Shown: positions 8,001 to 12,865 of the stretch, one piece after another | Position numbering within the stretch: position 1 is the first letter of the stretch | How the letters are laid out: each line of letters opens with the position of its first letter | Assembly (NCBI GenBank): GCA_964404825.1 | Contig: CAYOLQ010000009.1 | Span: 1-63,707 of the forward strand | Direction of reading: 5' to 3' | DNA from: an uncultured Chitinophaga sp. | Lineage (GTDB): Bacteria; Bacteroidota; Bacteroidia; Bacteroidales; GCA-2748055 | DNA: 63,707 nt | Notes under the pieces: model-generated | Database searches by the model: none | Told to the model about the DNA's origin: nothing | The model's input: only the letters and a program-made list of their open reading frames with translations | Made by a program: the position numbers and the translations under genes

Positions 8001-9053
8001 ACAAAGCTTTGCATTATAAAACAGGTTTTCAAATACTGTAAGTTCCTCAATAAGGAGATCGTCTTGTGGAATGTAGCCGATTACTCCCGCGAGTTTTTCC
8101 TTTTCTTCAAAGATATTAATTCCGTTAAGGTGAATGGTCCCTGAAGATGGGGCATCAATTCCCGAGAGAGTATTGAGCAGAGTTGTTTTTCCTGTGCCAC
8201 TGGCTCCCATGATTCCGATAAGATCGCCGTGTGTTGCACTTATGTTGACATTTCTAAGACCGGTAAGTCCGTTTTTAAACGTATAAGAGATATCACGTGC
8301 AACAAAGGATAGTTTTTCCGTGCTCGAATCGATTAGGAAGTGCGTGGAAATGTCGCTGTAATATATAGGTTTCCCTTTGGGGAGTTTGACTGTACTGCCA
8401 CGTGCAAATAAGTAAATACGGCCGCTGTGAAGACCCAAACCGTTCAGAAAAAGATCCTGATTTCCCGTATATTTTATAAAGTAGAGGTTAACATCAGGGA
8501 TACGAAGAATTAGAATTTCCTTGTCGAGCCGTTCGGCAAGTAAATGACGTTTGTTTCCCTTGTCAGATTCCTTATCGCTGATTATGAGAATATTAATATT
8601 ATCAATGGTAGAGAAATCATTTTCCAGGACAAAAGTTTCAATTGACTTGTAATCATCAGTGGAAATCCTGAACACATCGGATACAGTGGTTATGATAGCC
8701 AGTCTTTGCCGGGTAAGCTTTTTATCTGCATAAACCAGTTCAAAGAGTCTGACAAGCACGACGATTTTCTGACTCTGGTTAAGCGTTTTATTAATTTTTT
8801 TGCAGATTCCAAGTATTCTCACTGAATCCAGCACAGAGGTAAGCCGATGACCGTTTGTATCTTCCCCGGTTTTTCTGTCATCCTGTTCAGAACTCTCCAG
8901 AAAGAGTCTGAAATACTCTTCTGTTCCCGCTTCCCCCAGCTGCTGGATTAGAAAACTTTTTACATAACTTAGCTCATTCTCCTCCACACCACCGTCCTGT
9001 TTGGTGATAATGGCGAAAAGCTGCATCAGCGCTCTTAAAATTTCTTCACTCAC
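5085..9053 (-). CDS. multidomain ABC transporter: TerB-like N-terminal region, unknown domain, ABC ATPase, ABC-2/ABCG-like permease with a large loop, and an in-frame lipoprotein-like C-terminal module
   Basis: 1322-aa uninterrupted ORF with a GTG start that overlaps the stop of the upstream gene (GTGA). Walker A [12 protein letters not shown] (codons near 8180-8215). Signature/Walker B [31 protein letters not shown]. About 6 TM helices follow. The last 298 aa begin [20 protein letters not shown] (ATG at 5978), a complete lipoprotein signal. Confidence 0.85.
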   Translation of the reverse strand: [1322 protein letters not shown]

Positions 9054-10243: not shown

Positions 10244-12865
10244 TTAAAATTCTATACCAATCATCAGTACATCATCGAGTTGTTTAAAGCCATCCCTCCA
10301 ATTAGTAAAATCTTCCTCAAATAATGTGTGAAATTGTTTCATCGTGAAGCCGGGGTGTTCAAGAATCATTTCCCTTAGCCGGCCGGTTGAATATTTTCTT
10401 CCGTGCGGACCACCTAACTGATCAGTAATCCCATCGGAAAAAATGAATATTTTATCAGATTTTTTAAAGGAAATATAATTGTTTACAAAATCCTCTTCAA
10501 TTTTCTTGCCTATACTAATTCCTCCAATGGATTTGCGATCCCCTTTAAATTCTATAAGCTCTCCTTCGCTTAAAAGGAGTAACGGACGATGGGCTCCTGC
10601 AAAAACAAGTTCCTTCTTTTTAAGGTTTATTTTACAAAATGCAATATCCATTCCATCCCTTGTATCAGGATTTTCGGTATCCTGCTTTAAAGTATGGCGT
10701 ACGTTACGGTGCAGCGTATCGCAGATTTCAGCCGGAGACTGTTCTTTTTCCTTGTCGACAATATTATTCAGAAGGAAAAATCCAATAAATGATAACAGCG
10801 CTCCCGGAACACCATGACCTGTGCAATCCACCGCTGCTATGTAAATGTCATCATTCTTTTTAAAGTACCAGGGAAAATCCCCCGAAACAACATCCCTTGG
10901 CCTATAAAAAATAAAGCATTGGGGCAGACTTTGTTTTATGAATTCAATGTCAGGCAGTAGTGCTGACTGAATTCTTTCTGCATAATTTATACTATCTCCG
11001 ATATTTTTATTCTTTATCTGGATCTCTTTTTCAATCCTTTTTGCTTCAGTGATATCATGACCTACAAAAAGAACAGTCTCCAGCTCATCATTAGTGAATT
11101 CCGGTATAGCATCGATACTCATGATTCGTTCGGTTAGCTTTTCGCCCATTTTTACAGAGAGTGAAATCTCATTGTTGGTTTTCACGGGATTTGAAATTAT
11201 ACTCCGTAGTGAAGAATCAAAGTAATTATGAAGGGGAGGGGAAAAATTCAGCTCACTGAGTGGTTTGTTTTGCAAATCGAGCGGGTTAATACCTATGTAA
11301 TCTTCAACAACAGGGTTTGCATAATGGAAATGACCTGAGGTACTCAACCTGATTATCATGTCAAGAGAGTTTTCAGAGAGTGATTGCATACGGGTTTTGA
11401 GCCGTTCCTCCTTTTCAGCTCTGATTCTCTCGGTAATATCGCTGGAATTTATAATAATTCCCTGAATTGCAGGGTCATCCAGCAAATTTTTAGCTGTTGA
11501 TTCCAGATAAATACGTACGCCTTCTTTCTTAATAAATGAATACTGAATTGTTGTTTCAATACCGGGATTTTCAATCGAATTGGCAATTAACCTTCTTAGG
11601 TTTGCAGCCCCGTCCCTTGAAAGACGTTCAAAATCCTTACCCTGAATCATTTCCTCCGGAGTATAACCAAGAATTCGGGTTACAGATGGACTTACATAAT
11701 TCATCTGCAATTTGGCAGAATAAATTGAAATTACTTCGGATGCGTTTTCCAACAACCAGCGAAGTTTACCCTGTGCATTCTGAACTTCGGTTATTTTGGC
11801 CTCTAGCTGCTCATTGGATTTTCGAAGTTGTTCCTGGGTTGCCTTCATTTCTTCTGCGTTTTCCTGCAGAGTTTGTTCATTTTGCCTTAGCTCAAGGGTC
11901 ATGTTACACGATTCTTCCAAAAGCATCTCGGTCTTCTGATTGATTTTCAGATTATAGATAGTTCTGGCAATTGTTTCACCCAGCTCAAGAAGAAACTGTA
12001 TAACAATTTTTGGAAGTTTTTCATTTATGGAAGCGAATTCGAGCACTCCCTGCAATTTCCCATCTGTAATAAGAGGAATCAATAGAAGACTTTTCGGTTT
12101 CTGATCACCAATCAATCCTGAACTTAAGGTAATGAAATCATCAGGAATTTCGGTACGATAAACAAAATCCATTTCATAAGCACACTGTCCTACCAAACCT
12201 TCTCCAATCCTGAATTCCTGCCTGAGATATTTTTGCCTGTTATAGGCATAGGTAGCTGAATTAACTAAAACCTTTCGATCGATATCGTAAATGTACATAG
12301 CTCCCTGAACAACCTGTATATAGTTTATCAGATTCTTCAGTACATGAAATGACATAACATCTATCTTATTATGCAATCGTAAAATTCTGGATATCATGTC
12401 TTTGCCTTCTGAAATCCAGTTTTGGTCGCTTTCTTTTCTTTGATTAGCTTTTAAAAAATTCTGAAGTAAAAGAAGAGATTTCCCAAGAATATCTTCATCA
12501 TTTTCCGGCACAAAATTTCTTTTATAATCACCCTTACCAATTCCATAGGCATACTCGGAATACTTTTCAATTAAGGTCTGCCTGGTTTCTATTTCATTAA
12601 GTAATCTGGTTTTATCCTGATTTTGGTTCCTCATGTTTTTTAGAAATAATACACTCAGTATAATTGGAAGGCAATCTGTCAGCCAGAGAGCAGGATTATT
12701 CCTGTGGATTTCAATAATTCCATAAATAGAGATTTTAAGATCCCTGATAACCATGGTAGCAATCCATACCAGAAACAAACCAATGAGTAAGGAAATGAAA
12801 ACAGCCCTTTCAGGAATCTTTTCCTGTATAACAGTATAGCTGGTTTTTATATCCTTGATGTTCAT
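10244..12865 (-). CDS. membrane-anchored GAF-PAS-PAS-PP2C (SpoIIE/RsbU/SiaA-type) protein phosphatase
   Basis: 873 aa. N-terminal TM helices, a GAF region (VLKNLINYIQVVQGAMYIY...), an E/Q-rich coiled coil and two PAS-like repeats. C-terminal PP2C motifs AAVDCTGHGVPGALLS, IFSDGITDQ and DDVLMIGIEF. The ATG overlaps the upstream stop (ATGA). Confidence 0.9.
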   Translation of the reverse strand: MNIKDIKTSYTVIQEKIPERAVFISLLIGLFLVWIATMVIRDLKISIYGIIEIHRNNPALWLTDCLPIILSVLFLKNMRNQNQDKTRLLNEIETRQTLIEKYSEYAYGIGKGDYKRNFVPENDEDILGKSLLLLQNFLKANQRKESDQNWISEGKDMISRILRLHNKIDVMSFHVLKNLINYIQVVQGAMYIYDIDRKVLVNSATYAYNRQKYLRQEFRIGEGLVGQCAYEMDFVYRTEIPDDFITLSSGLIGDQKPKSLLLIPLITDGKLQGVLEFASINEKLPKIVIQFLLELGETIARTIYNLKINQKTEMLLEESCNMTLELRQNEQTLQENAEEMKATQEQLRKSNEQLEAKITEVQNAQGKLRWLLENASEVISIYSAKLQMNYVSPSVTRILGYTPEEMIQGKDFERLSRDGAANLRRLIANSIENPGIETTIQYSFIKKEGVRIYLESTAKNLLDDPAIQGIIINSSDITERIRAEKEERLKTRMQSLSENSLDMIIRLSTSGHFHYANPVVEDYIGINPLDLQNKPLSELNFSPPLHNYFDSSLRSIISNPVKTNNEISLSVKMGEKLTERIMSIDAIPEFTNDELETVLFVGHDITEAKRIEKEIQIKNKNIGDSINYAERIQSALLPDIEFIKQSLPQCFIFYRPRDVVSGDFPWYFKKNDDIYIAAVDCTGHGVPGALLSFIGFFLLNNIVDKEKEQSPAEICDTLHRNVRHTLKQDTENPDTRDGMDIAFCKINLKKKELVFAGAHRPLLLLSEGELIEFKGDRKSIGGISIGKKIEEDFVNNYISFKKSDKIFIFSDGITDQLGGPHGRKYSTGRLREMILEHPGFTMKQFHTLFEEDFTNWRDGFKQLDDVLMIGIEF

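What the first reader, a model, noticed from the sequence alone, without database searches (positions are those of the whole stretch)
9050..12865. SiaA/SiaB/SiaC-like partner switch with no diguanylate cyclase, translationally coupled to an ABC transporter
The trio is a PP2C phosphatase (873 aa), a GHKL-type kinase (192 aa, G-box GGAGLGFIDI) and a DUF1987 protein (126 aa). This matches the SiaA-SiaB-SiaC logic described in Pseudomonas aeruginosa, where unphosphorylated SiaC activates the cyclase SiaD. Here the fourth gene is not a cyclase. The SiaC-like stop overlaps the GTG start (GTGA, 9050-9053) of an ABC protein with a roughly 270-aa cytoplasmic N-terminal extension, whose first ~60 aa are TerB-like ([27 protein letters not shown]) and the rest of unknown fold. 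The FNTASS segment of the SiaC-like protein is a candidate phospho-acceptor region. The inference is that the phosphorylation state of this protein controls the transporter through that N-terminal extension.
Basis: inference. Interest (0 to 1): 0.7.

Follow-up and report, generated by a model that had tools for sequence, protein, structure and literature searches.

The report
SiaABC phospho-switch wired to ABC exporter
A three-protein phosphorylation switch, known from Pseudomonas where it turns on a signalling enzyme, sits here directly in front of a membrane export pump instead, and that arrangement is kept in about 85 other Bacteroidota genomes, so the pump is probably what the switch controls, though no contact between them has been shown.

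Summary
All genes lie on the minus strand:
- a SiaA-like PP2C phosphatase (873 aa)
- a SiaB-family kinase (192 aa)
- a SiaC protein (126 aa, with the acceptor threonine T68 invariant in 88 homologues)
- an ABCG-like ABC protein whose GTG start overlaps the SiaC stop

No diguanylate cyclase is present in the window or in 89 related loci.

The SiaB-SiaC-ABC order holds in 77 of 78 informative species genomes. It also holds in every other locus I looked up, including the cytophagal Fulvivirga.

1. The overlap and the GTG start are peculiar to this lineage. Relatives use ATG after a 12-199 nt spacer.
2. The "1322-aa ABC" is a lineage-specific fusion of a ~1015-aa ABC protein with a 297-aa lipoprotein.
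3. The N-terminal extension is a full TerB helical domain plus an FHA-like beta-sandwich that lacks the canonical phosphothreonine-binding residues.
4. A sister clade keeps this extension almost unchanged but has no SiaABC nearby (0 of 56 loci). The extension is therefore not a dedicated SiaC receiver.

The trio is the end of an eight-gene sensory cassette (CheR/CheB/GAF/PAS) placed in front of the export module.

Control of the transporter is well supported by synteny. The route through the N-terminus remains inference. I class it as a new variant of a known kind.

The parts
17673..18539 (-). CheR-type methyltransferase (288 aa), the first gene of the conserved sensory cassette
   Evidence: NCBIfam CheR at E 1e-22. 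It holds this position in related loci.
15028..17676 (-). Membrane sensor protein with HAMP, GAF and two PAS domains (882 aa) and no output domain
   Evidence: Pfam. Syntenic in relatives.
14190..15083 (-). Second CheR-type methyltransferase. The ORF is listed as 297 aa, but the true start is probably further downstream.
   Evidence: Pfam CheR at E 1e-14. Relatives are 273-282 aa.
13632..14138 (-). CheB methylesterase catalytic domain only (168 aa, no receiver domain)
   Evidence: Pfam CheB_methylest at E 8.5e-41.
12862..13623 (-). Small GAF-domain protein (253 aa). Its stop overlaps the PP2C start by 4 nt.
   Evidence: Pfam GAF_2. Coordinates.
10244..12865 (-). SiaA-like phosphatase (873 aa): N-terminal hydrophobic segments (seen by eye, no topology prediction run), GAF, two PAS domains, and a PP2C (SpoIIE) domain
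   Evidence: Pfam. NCBIfam SiaA positions 395-655 at E 1e-47, below the equivalog cut-off. PDB 6k4e SiaA PP2C at E 3e-35, with the metal-binding motifs kept.
10014..10243 (-). 230-nt spacer between the phosphatase gene and siaB. It is the only sizeable gap in the cluster and may hold an internal promoter.
   Evidence: Sequence. A metatranscriptome contig spans 9908-10117. Relatives have spacers of about 50-140 nt.
9435..10013 (-). SiaB-family GHKL-type protein kinase (192 aa)
   Evidence: Pfam DUF6272. NCBIfam SiaB_fam_kinase is above its cut-off. PDB SiaB 6kko_A at E 5e-7. The N-box and the GGAGLG G-box are invariant in 86 homologues.
9050..9430 (-). SiaC-family phosphoprotein (126 aa). The acceptor is T68 in the motif YFNTASSK.
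   Evidence: Pfam SiaC at E 1e-39. PDB SiaC at E 1e-14, with T68 aligned. Y65, F66, N67, T68 and A69 are invariant in 88 sequences.
9050..9053 (-). GTGA overlap of the SiaC stop and the ABC GTG start. It is specific to this lineage.
   Evidence: Sequence. All 80 relatives use ATG, and in the loci where SiaC is present it follows a 12-199 nt spacer. The same overlap appears in same-species assemblies L086, L087 and L089.
8625..9053 (-). TerB-like helical domain of the ABC protein (residues 1-143). It includes a disordered acidic linker (about 55-70) that ends in the clade-specific motif [KR]-L-T72-S.
   Evidence: Pfam TerB residues 8-138 at E 7e-8. AlphaFold2 places helices at 3-143, with pLDDT below 50 at 64-67. 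Foldseek matches the TerB-like protein 2h5n. T72 is found in 85 of 88 SiaABC-linked sequences, against Pro in 74 of 74 unlinked ones.
8334..8606 (-). FHA-like beta-sandwich of the ABC protein (residues about 150-240). The canonical phosphothreonine-binding residues are not conserved.
   Evidence: AlphaFold2 gives pLDDT of about 94-96 over most strand blocks. The top Foldseek hits are FHA domains (CEP170, MEK1, Rad53, EssC; prob 0.97-1.0, TM 0.24-0.54 on target length). The only PDB hit of the family profile is the MEK1 FHA domain at E 0.09. Pfam FHA is not detected.
7554..8258 (-). ABC nucleotide-binding domain
   Evidence: Pfam ABC_tran residues 266-417 at E 2e-30. TIGR00955 (ABCG/white type) at E 2e-75, below its cut-off.
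6708..7364 (-). ABC-2 type membrane domain
   Evidence: Pfam ABC2_membrane residues 564-782 at E 8e-21.
5085..5978 (-). Conserved 297-aa lipoprotein of unknown fold (signal [18 protein letters not shown]). In this lineage it is fused in frame to the ABC ORF.
   Evidence: It is a separate gene in all 77 relatives where the ORF could be read. The junction shows a deletion of the ABC tail, stop codon and part of the spacer. The fusion recurs in independent assemblies and in a DNA contig spanning 5733-6264. It has 2146 homologues and no Pfam match. The AlphaFold2 model has no PDB match.
4632..5081 (-). 149-aa protein with a hydrophobic N-terminus that reads like a signal peptide (by eye, no predictor run). 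It is the last gene of the conserved export module.
   Evidence: Syntenic in nearly all relatives of both clades. No Pfam or NCBIfam match.

Best explanation
This is a SiaA/SiaB/SiaC-type threonine-phosphorylation switch. Its output is most likely the ABCG-like exporter encoded directly downstream, not a diguanylate cyclase.

The three genes are the last part of an eight-gene sensory cassette: CheR, a HAMP-GAF-PAS sensor, CheR, CheB, a GAF protein, a GAF-PAS-PAS-PP2C phosphatase, a SiaB-family kinase, and SiaC. In many Bacteroidota this cassette stands immediately in front of a conserved three-gene export module. That module is an ABC protein with a TerB, FHA-like, NBD and TMD layout, a 297-aa lipoprotein, and a ~149-aa protein that looks secreted.

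Proposed working:
1. Signals read by the GAF and PAS domains set the activity of the PP2C phosphatase. CheR/CheB methylation may tune this.
2. The phosphatase removes phosphate from SiaC T68, and the SiaB-family kinase adds it.
3. Unphosphorylated SiaC docks on the cytoplasmic N-terminal module of the ABC protein, using the same Y65/N67/T68 patch and helices that bind the SiaD stalk in Pseudomonas. This changes ATPase activity and transport.

Shown here: gene content, homology to SiaA, SiaB and SiaC, invariance of the acceptor site and catalytic motifs, absence of a cyclase, and conserved synteny.

Inferred: the enzyme activities, the SiaC-transporter contact and its site, the sign of the effect, and the substrate. 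The substrate may be an envelope lipid or glycolipid.
For: - Homology of all three proteins to the Pseudomonas Sia proteins.
- T68 and the flanking Y65, F66, N67 and A69 are invariant in 88 SiaC sequences. The kinase N-box and G-box are invariant in 86.
- SiaC lies directly upstream of the ABC gene in 77 of 78 informative species genomes. The same holds in Fulvivirga and in L082-L089, L172-L174.
- The genes are tightly packed: siaB to siaC 4 nt, siaC to ABC -4 nt, ABC to p149 3 nt.
- The cluster contains no other effector-type gene, and no GGDEF motif occurs in the window or in 89 related loci.
- The cassette sits exactly between an LPG_synthase_TM gene and the ABC gene. These two are direct neighbours in the clade that lacks the cassette.
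- Chen et al. 2021 (PMC8457831) show that SiaC binds a helical stalk through Y65, N67, T68 and helices alpha2 and alpha3. They propose that DUF1987 proteins modulate adjacent proteins.
- The few fixed differences between SiaABC-linked and unlinked N-extensions are local: [KR]-L-T72-S, G197, and the LPKGKP loop at 224-229.
Against: - No interaction could be computed or measured here.
- A sister clade keeps the TerB plus FHA-like extension almost unchanged without any adjacent SiaABC: 0 of 56 loci, plus L090. The extension is therefore not a dedicated SiaC receiver, and the transporter can work without an adjacent switch.
- L010 has the kinase but no SiaC.
- The FHA-like domain lacks conserved canonical phosphothreonine-binding residues.
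- The clade-specific residues reflect a single evolutionary split, so they are confounded by phylogeny.
- The distance-correlation analysis did not single out the N-extension.
Confidence: 0.5

Rival explanations
1. The switch controls the transporter, but SiaC binds the nucleotide-binding domain rather than the N-terminal extension. This is how the STAS protein MlaB binds and regulates the ATPase MlaF.
For: - SiaC is structurally related to STAS (PMC7647112; PMC8457831).
- The N-extension is equally conserved in the clade without SiaABC, so it need not be the receiver.
- SiaC distances correlate with NBD distances at least as well as with TerB distances, though this analysis is weak.
- The MlaB-MlaF precedent rests on my own knowledge of the literature.
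Against: - The NBD is an ordinary ABCG-type domain with no obvious added surface.
- The fixed differences between linked and unlinked clades that I looked for and found lie in the N-extension. The NBD was not screened in the same way.
Confidence: 0.15
2. This is classical partner-switch polarity. The SiaB-family kinase itself binds or phosphorylates the transporter's N-extension, for example at the [KR]-L-T72-S motif that ends the disordered linker. SiaC then acts as the kinase's antagonist or decoy.
For: - L010 keeps a PP2C and the kinase directly in front of the ABC gene with SiaC deleted.
- T72 is present in 85 of 88 SiaABC-linked proteins and is Pro in 74 of 74 unlinked ones.
- T72 sits at the N-cap of a helix after a low-confidence linker, much as T68 does in SiaC.
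- In Rv1747 the regulatory phosphothreonines lie in a disordered linker next to FHA domains (PMC8339232 abstract).
Against: - In the characterised Sia system the kinase's only known substrate is SiaC, and SiaC is the effector-binding protein.
- L010 is a single metagenome-assembled genome.
- The T72 against P72 contrast rests on one clade split.
Confidence: 0.15
3. The polarity is reversed. Phosphorylated SiaC (pT68) is what the FHA-like domain recognises, and binding shuts the exporter off. This is how pT237-Rv2623 binds FHA-I of the mycobacterial ABC exporter Rv1747.
For: - The FHA-like fold lies directly N-terminal to the NBD.
- Precedent for a small phosphoprotein binding an FHA domain on an ABC exporter (PMC5549992; PMC3138270).
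Against: - Pfam FHA is not detected.
- In the profile alignment, the family has G197 and a variable residue where FHA domains carry the S-x-N motif.
- No invariant Arg or S-x-x-H is found in the variable loops at 160-180.
- T68 lies at a helix N-cap in a folded protein, not in an extended peptide.
Confidence: 0.1
4. There is no direct link. The SiaABC cassette and the export module are merely co-transcribed neighbours. SiaC's true partner is encoded elsewhere, or is another cassette protein such as the GAF protein or the CheR/CheB enzymes.
For: - The transporter module exists without the cassette in a whole clade.
- No interaction data exist.
- SiaC distances correlate best with CheB distances.
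Against: - The SiaB-SiaC-ABC order, with spacers of mostly 12-60 nt, is kept across orders of Bacteroidota at 46-60% protein identity.
- The cluster has no other effector gene.
- Chance co-location would not survive that much divergence.
Confidence: 0.1

Closest known systems
SiaABCD of Pseudomonas aeruginosa (PP2C SiaA, kinase SiaB, phosphoprotein SiaC, diguanylate cyclase SiaD)
   Same: - The PP2C, kinase and phosphoprotein are homologous. Each has the Pseudomonas protein as its best solved-structure match.
- The acceptor T68 and the Y65/N67 contact residues are conserved.
- The gene order phosphatase-kinase-SiaC-output is the same.
   Different: - The output gene is an ABC exporter, not a GGDEF cyclase, and there is no cyclase within 10 kb in any of 89 loci.
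- The phosphatase carries GAF and two PAS domains.
- The phosphatase is preceded by CheR, CheB and GAF genes.
- The SiaA and SiaC equivalog cut-offs are not reached.
Rv1747 of Mycobacterium tuberculosis: an FHA-domain ABC exporter regulated by the kinase PknF and by the phosphoprotein Rv2623
   Same: - An exporter with an NBD followed by an ABC-2 membrane domain, and a regulatory FHA-type fold N-terminal to the NBD.
- Ser/Thr phospho-signalling genes lie next door.
- A small phosphoprotein gates the pump.
- A lipid-type substrate is suspected in both.
   Different: - Here there is one degenerate FHA-like domain preceded by a TerB domain.
- The canonical phosphothreonine-binding residues are not conserved.
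- The kinase is a GHKL SiaB type, not a Hanks type.
- A PP2C partner-switch trio takes the place of PknF.
MlaB-MlaF (a STAS-domain protein regulating an ABC ATPase) and STAS/RsbV-RsbW-RsbU partner switches in general
   Same: - A small STAS-like protein is encoded next to an ABC transporter and presumed to regulate it.
- The PP2C, GHKL kinase and phospho-substrate logic is the same.
   Different: - MlaB is not known to be cycled by a dedicated kinase and phosphatase pair.
- Classical switches end at sigma factors.
- SiaC is only structurally, not sequence-wise, STAS-like.
- The MlaB comparison rests on my own knowledge and was not tested here.

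Membership tests
SiaABCD signalling module | PP2C phosphatase homologous to SiaA with intact metal-binding motifs | tested here: met
   PDB 6k4e at E 3e-35, with the GDF, DCxGHGVPGA, DGxxDQ and DD motifs aligned. The NCBIfam SiaA equivalog score of 162.8 is below its cut-off of 700, so this is a homologue and not an equivalog.
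SiaABCD signalling module | SiaB-family kinase | tested here: met
   NF038262 SiaB_fam_kinase scores 153.8 against a cut-off of 85. The kinase_SiaB equivalog scores 65 against 225 and is not met. PDB SiaB at E 5e-7.
SiaABCD signalling module | SiaC/DUF1987 phosphoprotein with an acceptor Thr at position 68 | tested here: met
   Pfam SiaC scores 135 bits against a cut-off of 24.5. T68 is aligned and invariant in 88 sequences. The equivalog scores 83.4 against 150 and is not met.
SiaABCD signalling module | Diguanylate cyclase SiaD as the co-encoded output | tested here: not met
   The fourth gene is an ABC transporter. No GG[DE]EF motif occurs in the window or in 89 related loci.
SiaABCD signalling module | Reversible phosphorylation of SiaC, and phospho-dependent binding to the output | not testable with these tools
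   This needs biochemistry or a multimer prediction.
FHA-domain ABC exporters (Rv1747 type) | FHA domain N-terminal to the NBD | tested here: inconclusive
   At the fold level the top Foldseek hits are FHA domains (prob 0.97-1.0, E about 1e-2), and the single profile hit is the MEK1 FHA domain at E 0.09. Pfam FHA is not detected in 21 members.
FHA-domain ABC exporters (Rv1747 type) | Conserved phosphothreonine-binding residues (Arg, Ser, Asn of the GR / SxxH / SxNG loops) | tested here: not met
   In the alignment to MEK1, the SxN positions fall on G197 and a variable residue. The loops at 160-180 hold no invariant Arg, Ser or His. This mapping is by sequence only.
FHA-domain ABC exporters (Rv1747 type) | ABC_tran plus ABC-2 membrane half-transporter | tested here: met
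   Pfam ABC_tran and ABC2_membrane. TIGR00955 at E 2e-75, below its cut-off.
TerB domain proteins | Match to Pfam TerB above the gathering score | tested here: met
   33.2 bits against a cut-off of 24.4, residues 8-138. The helical bundle is modelled at high confidence. Foldseek matches the TerB-like protein 2h5n.

The most novel reading that the evidence does not exclude
The whole 11-gene cluster may be one non-transcriptional sensory pathway. A chemotaxis-style methylation and adaptation unit (two CheR, one CheB, and GAF/PAS sensors, with no MCP, CheA or CheW in the cluster genes scanned) would feed a PP2C/SiaB/SiaC phospho-switch. The switch would gate an envelope-lipid exporter through its TerB/FHA-like N-terminal module, with the clade-specific [KR]-L-T72-S motif and FHA-like loops as the receiving surface. 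That would be a new output class for partner switches and a new job for CheR/CheB in a phylum without flagellar chemotaxis.
Probability: 0.2. Interest if true: 0.8.

Novelty: new variant of a known kind. Interest (0 to 1): 0.55.

Why it matters
SiaC (DUF1987) proteins are widespread, but the only demonstrated target is one diguanylate cyclase. This finding gives a second, well-delimited and evolutionarily conserved candidate target class: an ABC exporter.

Three natural controls help design experiments:
- a sister clade that lacks the switch
- one genome that lacks only SiaC
- a lineage in which the pump is fused to its lipoprotein

If the link is confirmed, it would show three things:
- SiaABC is a modular switch that can be attached to different outputs.
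- Bacteroidota gate a pump post-translationally. Its neighbours (an LPG-synthase-TM/flippase-like gene, a lipoprotein, and a small protein that looks secreted) point to the cell envelope.
- The orphan CheR/CheB genes of this phylum have a testable role.

Several cultured carriers make the genetics feasible: Alkaliflexus imshenetskii, Labilibacter marinus, Carboxylicivirga linearis, Plebeiibacterium sediminum and Fulvivirga maritima.

Tried and rejected
- **PADLOC scan of the cluster proteins.** Only generic ABC ATPase matches came up, so nothing points to a defence system.
- **Structure of the 297-aa lipoprotein.** The AlphaFold2 model has pLDDT 80 and shows a helical bundle plus a small sheet. 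It has no significant PDB fold match (best E 0.3, prob below 0.25). The substrate therefore remains unknown.
- **Pfam scan of the FHA-like region in 21 family members at E up to 10.** FHA was not detected.
- **Distance-matrix (mirror-tree) correlation.** I compared SiaC and SiaB with each part of the cluster in 30 complete loci. Slowly evolving cytoplasmic proteins all correlate with one another (CheB 0.75, NBD 0.49, TerB 0.45). This does not discriminate between candidates, so I did not use it as evidence.
- **Literature searches.** DUF1987, DUF6272, SiaC with ABC, SiaC with Bacteroidota, and TerB/FHA/ABC found no description of this cluster. One hit for 'SiaC' in Bacteroidota was an unrelated sialidase.
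- **Metatranscriptomes.** Only a few short contigs at depth about 2 were found. That is enough to suggest expression but not to define transcription units.
- **The 1322-aa ORF as an assembly error.** Rejected, because the same fusion occurs in independent assemblies.
- **A SiaC-ABC multimer model.** This could not be attempted. The structure tool takes single chains of window or database sequences only.

Full report
**1. What is in the sequence**

All relevant genes lie on the minus strand and are packed head to tail.
- The 873-aa protein (10244-12865) has GAF, two PAS and a SpoIIE/PP2C domain. Its catalytic domain matches SiaA of Pseudomonas aeruginosa better than any other solved structure (6k4e, E 3e-35), and the metal-binding motifs are kept.
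- The 192-aa protein (9435-10013) is Pfam DUF6272 and passes the NCBIfam cut-off for 'SiaB family protein kinase'. It aligns to SiaB in PDB 6kko.
- The 126-aa protein (9050-9430) is Pfam SiaC (E 1e-39) and aligns to crystallised SiaC at E 1e-14. The threonine of its 'FNTASS' segment falls exactly on the known acceptor T68.
- The next ORF (5085-9053) starts with a GTG that overlaps the SiaC stop as GTGA. It holds TerB, ABC_tran and ABC2_membrane domains.
- No GG[DE]EF motif exists in any frame of the 63.7-kb window.

**2. Corrections to the anatomy**

*The ABC ORF is a fusion.* Residues 1026-1322 begin with a lipoprotein signal ([18 protein letters not shown]). In all 77 relatives where the ORF could be read, the ABC protein ends at about 1015-1048 aa in most, and the 297-aa lipoprotein is a separate gene. 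Comparison with close relatives shows that the window lost the ABC tail, the stop codon and part of the spacer. The fusion is real, because it recurs in four independent metagenome assemblies and in a DNA contig that spans the junction.

*The start-stop overlap is not conserved.* All 80 relatives start the ABC gene with ATG, and in the loci where SiaC is present it follows a 12-199 nt spacer.

*The N-terminal extension has a recognisable structure.* An AlphaFold2 model built from 98 homologues (pLDDT 88.7) shows a helical TerB domain at residues 3-143 and a beta-sandwich at about 155-235.
- The top Foldseek hits for the sandwich are FHA domains (CEP170, MEK1, Rad53, EssC), plus the TerB-like protein 2h5n for the helical part.
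- A sequence profile of the sandwich finds one PDB protein, again the MEK1 FHA domain (E 0.09).
- Pfam FHA is not detected, and the positions of the canonical phosphothreonine-binding residues are Gly or variable.
- I therefore call it FHA-like and probably degenerate.

**3. Conservation**

*The N-terminal module.* The 262-aa module is a family of its own. It has 274 clusters (at 50% identity) with E below 1e-30. Among the 150 best listed, every near-full-length member (about 980-1160 aa) carries it at or near the N-terminus. At least 581 species genomes hold it.

*The closest relatives.* I examined the 80 best genomes (Bacteroidales and Marinilabiliales, 51-62% identical).
- 78 have enough upstream DNA to judge, and 77 of those have SiaC directly upstream, preceded by the SiaB-family kinase. 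A PP2C gene follows upstream in every locus whose flank reaches that far.
- Most show the whole order CheR, HAMP-GAF-PAS sensor, CheR, CheB, GAF, PP2C, SiaB, SiaC, ABC, lipoprotein, p149.

*More distant carriers.* The same order is found in the cytophagal Fulvivirga maritima, whose ABC is only 49% identical. It is also found in every locus reached from the SiaC side, down to 52% SiaC identity.

*Conserved residues.* T68 with Y65, F66, N67 and A69 is invariant in 88 SiaC sequences. The kinase N-box and G-box are invariant too. None of the 89 loci has a GGDEF gene.

**4. The important exceptions**

*A clade without the switch.* A second clade of the same ABC family is 53% identical to the window protein. 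I sampled it through 80 metagenome loci and one 5-Mb genome.
- It keeps the lipoprotein and p149.
- It keeps the TerB plus FHA-like extension, with 69 positions at least 90% conserved and identical in both clades.
- It has no SiaC, SiaB or PP2C within up to 6 kb upstream in 0 of 56 informative loci.
- An LPG_synthase_TM (flippase-like) gene lies about 50 nt upstream of the ABC gene instead.

*Where the cassette sits.* In the SiaABC-linked clade that same LPG_synthase_TM gene lies just upstream of the first CheR, wherever the flank reaches that far. The eight-gene cassette therefore sits exactly between two genes that are otherwise neighbours. Because Fulvivirga is the most distant carrier and has the cassette, loss in the second clade is the more parsimonious reading.

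*A genome without SiaC.* One genome, L010, has a TPR-PP2C and the kinase directly before the ABC gene, with SiaC cleanly absent.

**5. What this means for the mechanism**

The synteny argues strongly that the cassette serves the export module. It is the only effector-type function in the cluster, and the SiaB-SiaC-ABC order survives deep divergence.

The sister clade shows that the N-terminal extension has a role that does not need an adjacent SiaC. The claim of control 'through the N-terminal extension' is weaker than the claim of control 'of the transporter'.

Two things favour the extension as the receiver.
- In Pseudomonas, SiaC binds a helical stalk using Y65, N67, T68 and helices alpha2 and alpha3 (PMC8457831). 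That patch is invariant here, and the TerB domain is helical.
- The few fixed differences between linked and unlinked clades are local. They are a [KR]-L-T72-S motif at the end of a disordered acidic linker (T in 85 of 88 linked sequences, P in 74 of 74 unlinked), G197 against S197, and the loop LPKGKP against SQQGH(S) in the FHA-like domain. These rest on one clade split, so they are leads and not proof.

The rivals are:
- SiaC docks on the NBD, as MlaB does on MlaF.
- The kinase acts on the transporter itself at T72, with SiaC as antagonist. L010 fits this.
- Phospho-SiaC is read by the FHA-like domain, as pT237-Rv2623 is read by FHA-I of Rv1747 (PMC5549992).
- There is no direct link.

**6. 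Comparison with what is known**

The system works like SiaABCD but fails the fourth defining feature, the cyclase. It also scores below the equivalog cut-offs for SiaA and SiaC. It is a SiaABC-type switch with a different output, not an orthologous SiaABCD.

The transporter resembles the FHA-ABC exporter Rv1747 in layout and in being placed under Ser/Thr phospho-control. It differs in having a TerB domain, a degenerate FHA-like fold and a GHKL kinase.

I found no paper describing this cluster. Chen et al. only suggest in general terms that DUF1987 proteins modulate adjacent proteins.

**7. Other evidence and limits**

Two freshwater metatranscriptomes hold short contigs on SiaC, the ABC gene, the lipoprotein part and the siaB 5' region. 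This is weak evidence that the locus is expressed in situ.

The lipoprotein model has no PDB match, so the substrate is unknown. The ABCG-type core, the flippase-like neighbour and the lipoprotein make an envelope lipid or glycolipid a reasonable guess, and only that.

No multimer prediction could be run, and the mirror-tree analysis was uninformative.

**8. Verdict**

- This is a conserved, undescribed variant of a known kind of switch.
- Control of the transporter is likely, at about 0.8 when all models with a direct link are summed.
- The specific route through the N-terminal extension by unphosphorylated SiaC is the single best model, at about 0.5.

Noticed in passing
window 5085-9053, junction at about 5978-6010: The ABC gene and the downstream lipoprotein gene are fused into one 1322-aa ORF. 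A small deletion removed the ABC tail, the stop codon and part of the spacer. The two are separate genes in all 77 relatives where the ORF could be read, but the fusion appears in every assembly of this lineage. The lipoprotein's own ATG (5978) and signal peptide remain intact, so it could also be made on its own.
   Followed up: yes
window 12862-18539: Two CheR methyltransferases, a receiver-less CheB methylesterase, a HAMP-GAF-PAS-PAS membrane sensor and a small GAF protein form a conserved block upstream of the phosphatase. The Pfam scan of the cluster proteins found no MCP signalling domain, CheA or CheW (the first CheR, 17673-18539, was scanned against NCBIfam only). What CheR and CheB methylate here is unexplained.
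   Followed up: partly
L106 4866-5951; L007, L009, L011, L027, L043, L078 at the first ~900 nt: An LPG_synthase_TM (PF03706, flippase-like) gene directly precedes the ABC gene in the clade without SiaABC. In the clade with SiaABC it precedes the first CheR. The eight-gene cassette therefore lies exactly between two genes that are otherwise adjacent. The window itself has no such gene. Upstream of the first CheR gene it has a DUF3108-like gene (18705-19427) and a Schlafen/AlbA_2 gene (19590-20246).
   Followed up: partly
L010 6711-10001: A groundwater Bacteroidia MAG has a TPR-repeat SpoIIE phosphatase and the SiaB-family kinase directly in front of the ABC gene. Only 29 nt separate the kinase from the ABC gene, and there is no SiaC.
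   Followed up: partly
window 8838-8846 (ABC residues 70-72) and 8367-8384 (residues 224-229): The motifs [KR]-L-T72-S and LPKGKP are conserved in SiaABC-linked ABC proteins. In the unlinked clade they are replaced by x-[AP]-P-S and SQQGH(S). G197 becomes S197 there as well. These are candidate regulatory contact or phospho-acceptor sites.
   Followed up: partly
window 2206-4560: A purD gene and a 333-aa membrane protein lie beyond p149. The membrane protein's counterpart in relatives is weakly DUF6427. The same pair flanks the export module in close relatives and in several other loci of both clades (L082, L084, L090; L174 has the DUF6427 gene only). The chromosomal position of the module therefore recurs.
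   Followed up: no
L081 10001-13082; L085; L090: In some genomes the ABC gene is called as two or more pieces: a TerB-NBD gene of about 400 aa plus a permease. In the Fulvivirga complete genome this may be a real split or a frameshift. In the other two it may reflect assembly errors, which was not checked. These pieces also explain why many database 'homologues' are short.
   Followed up: no
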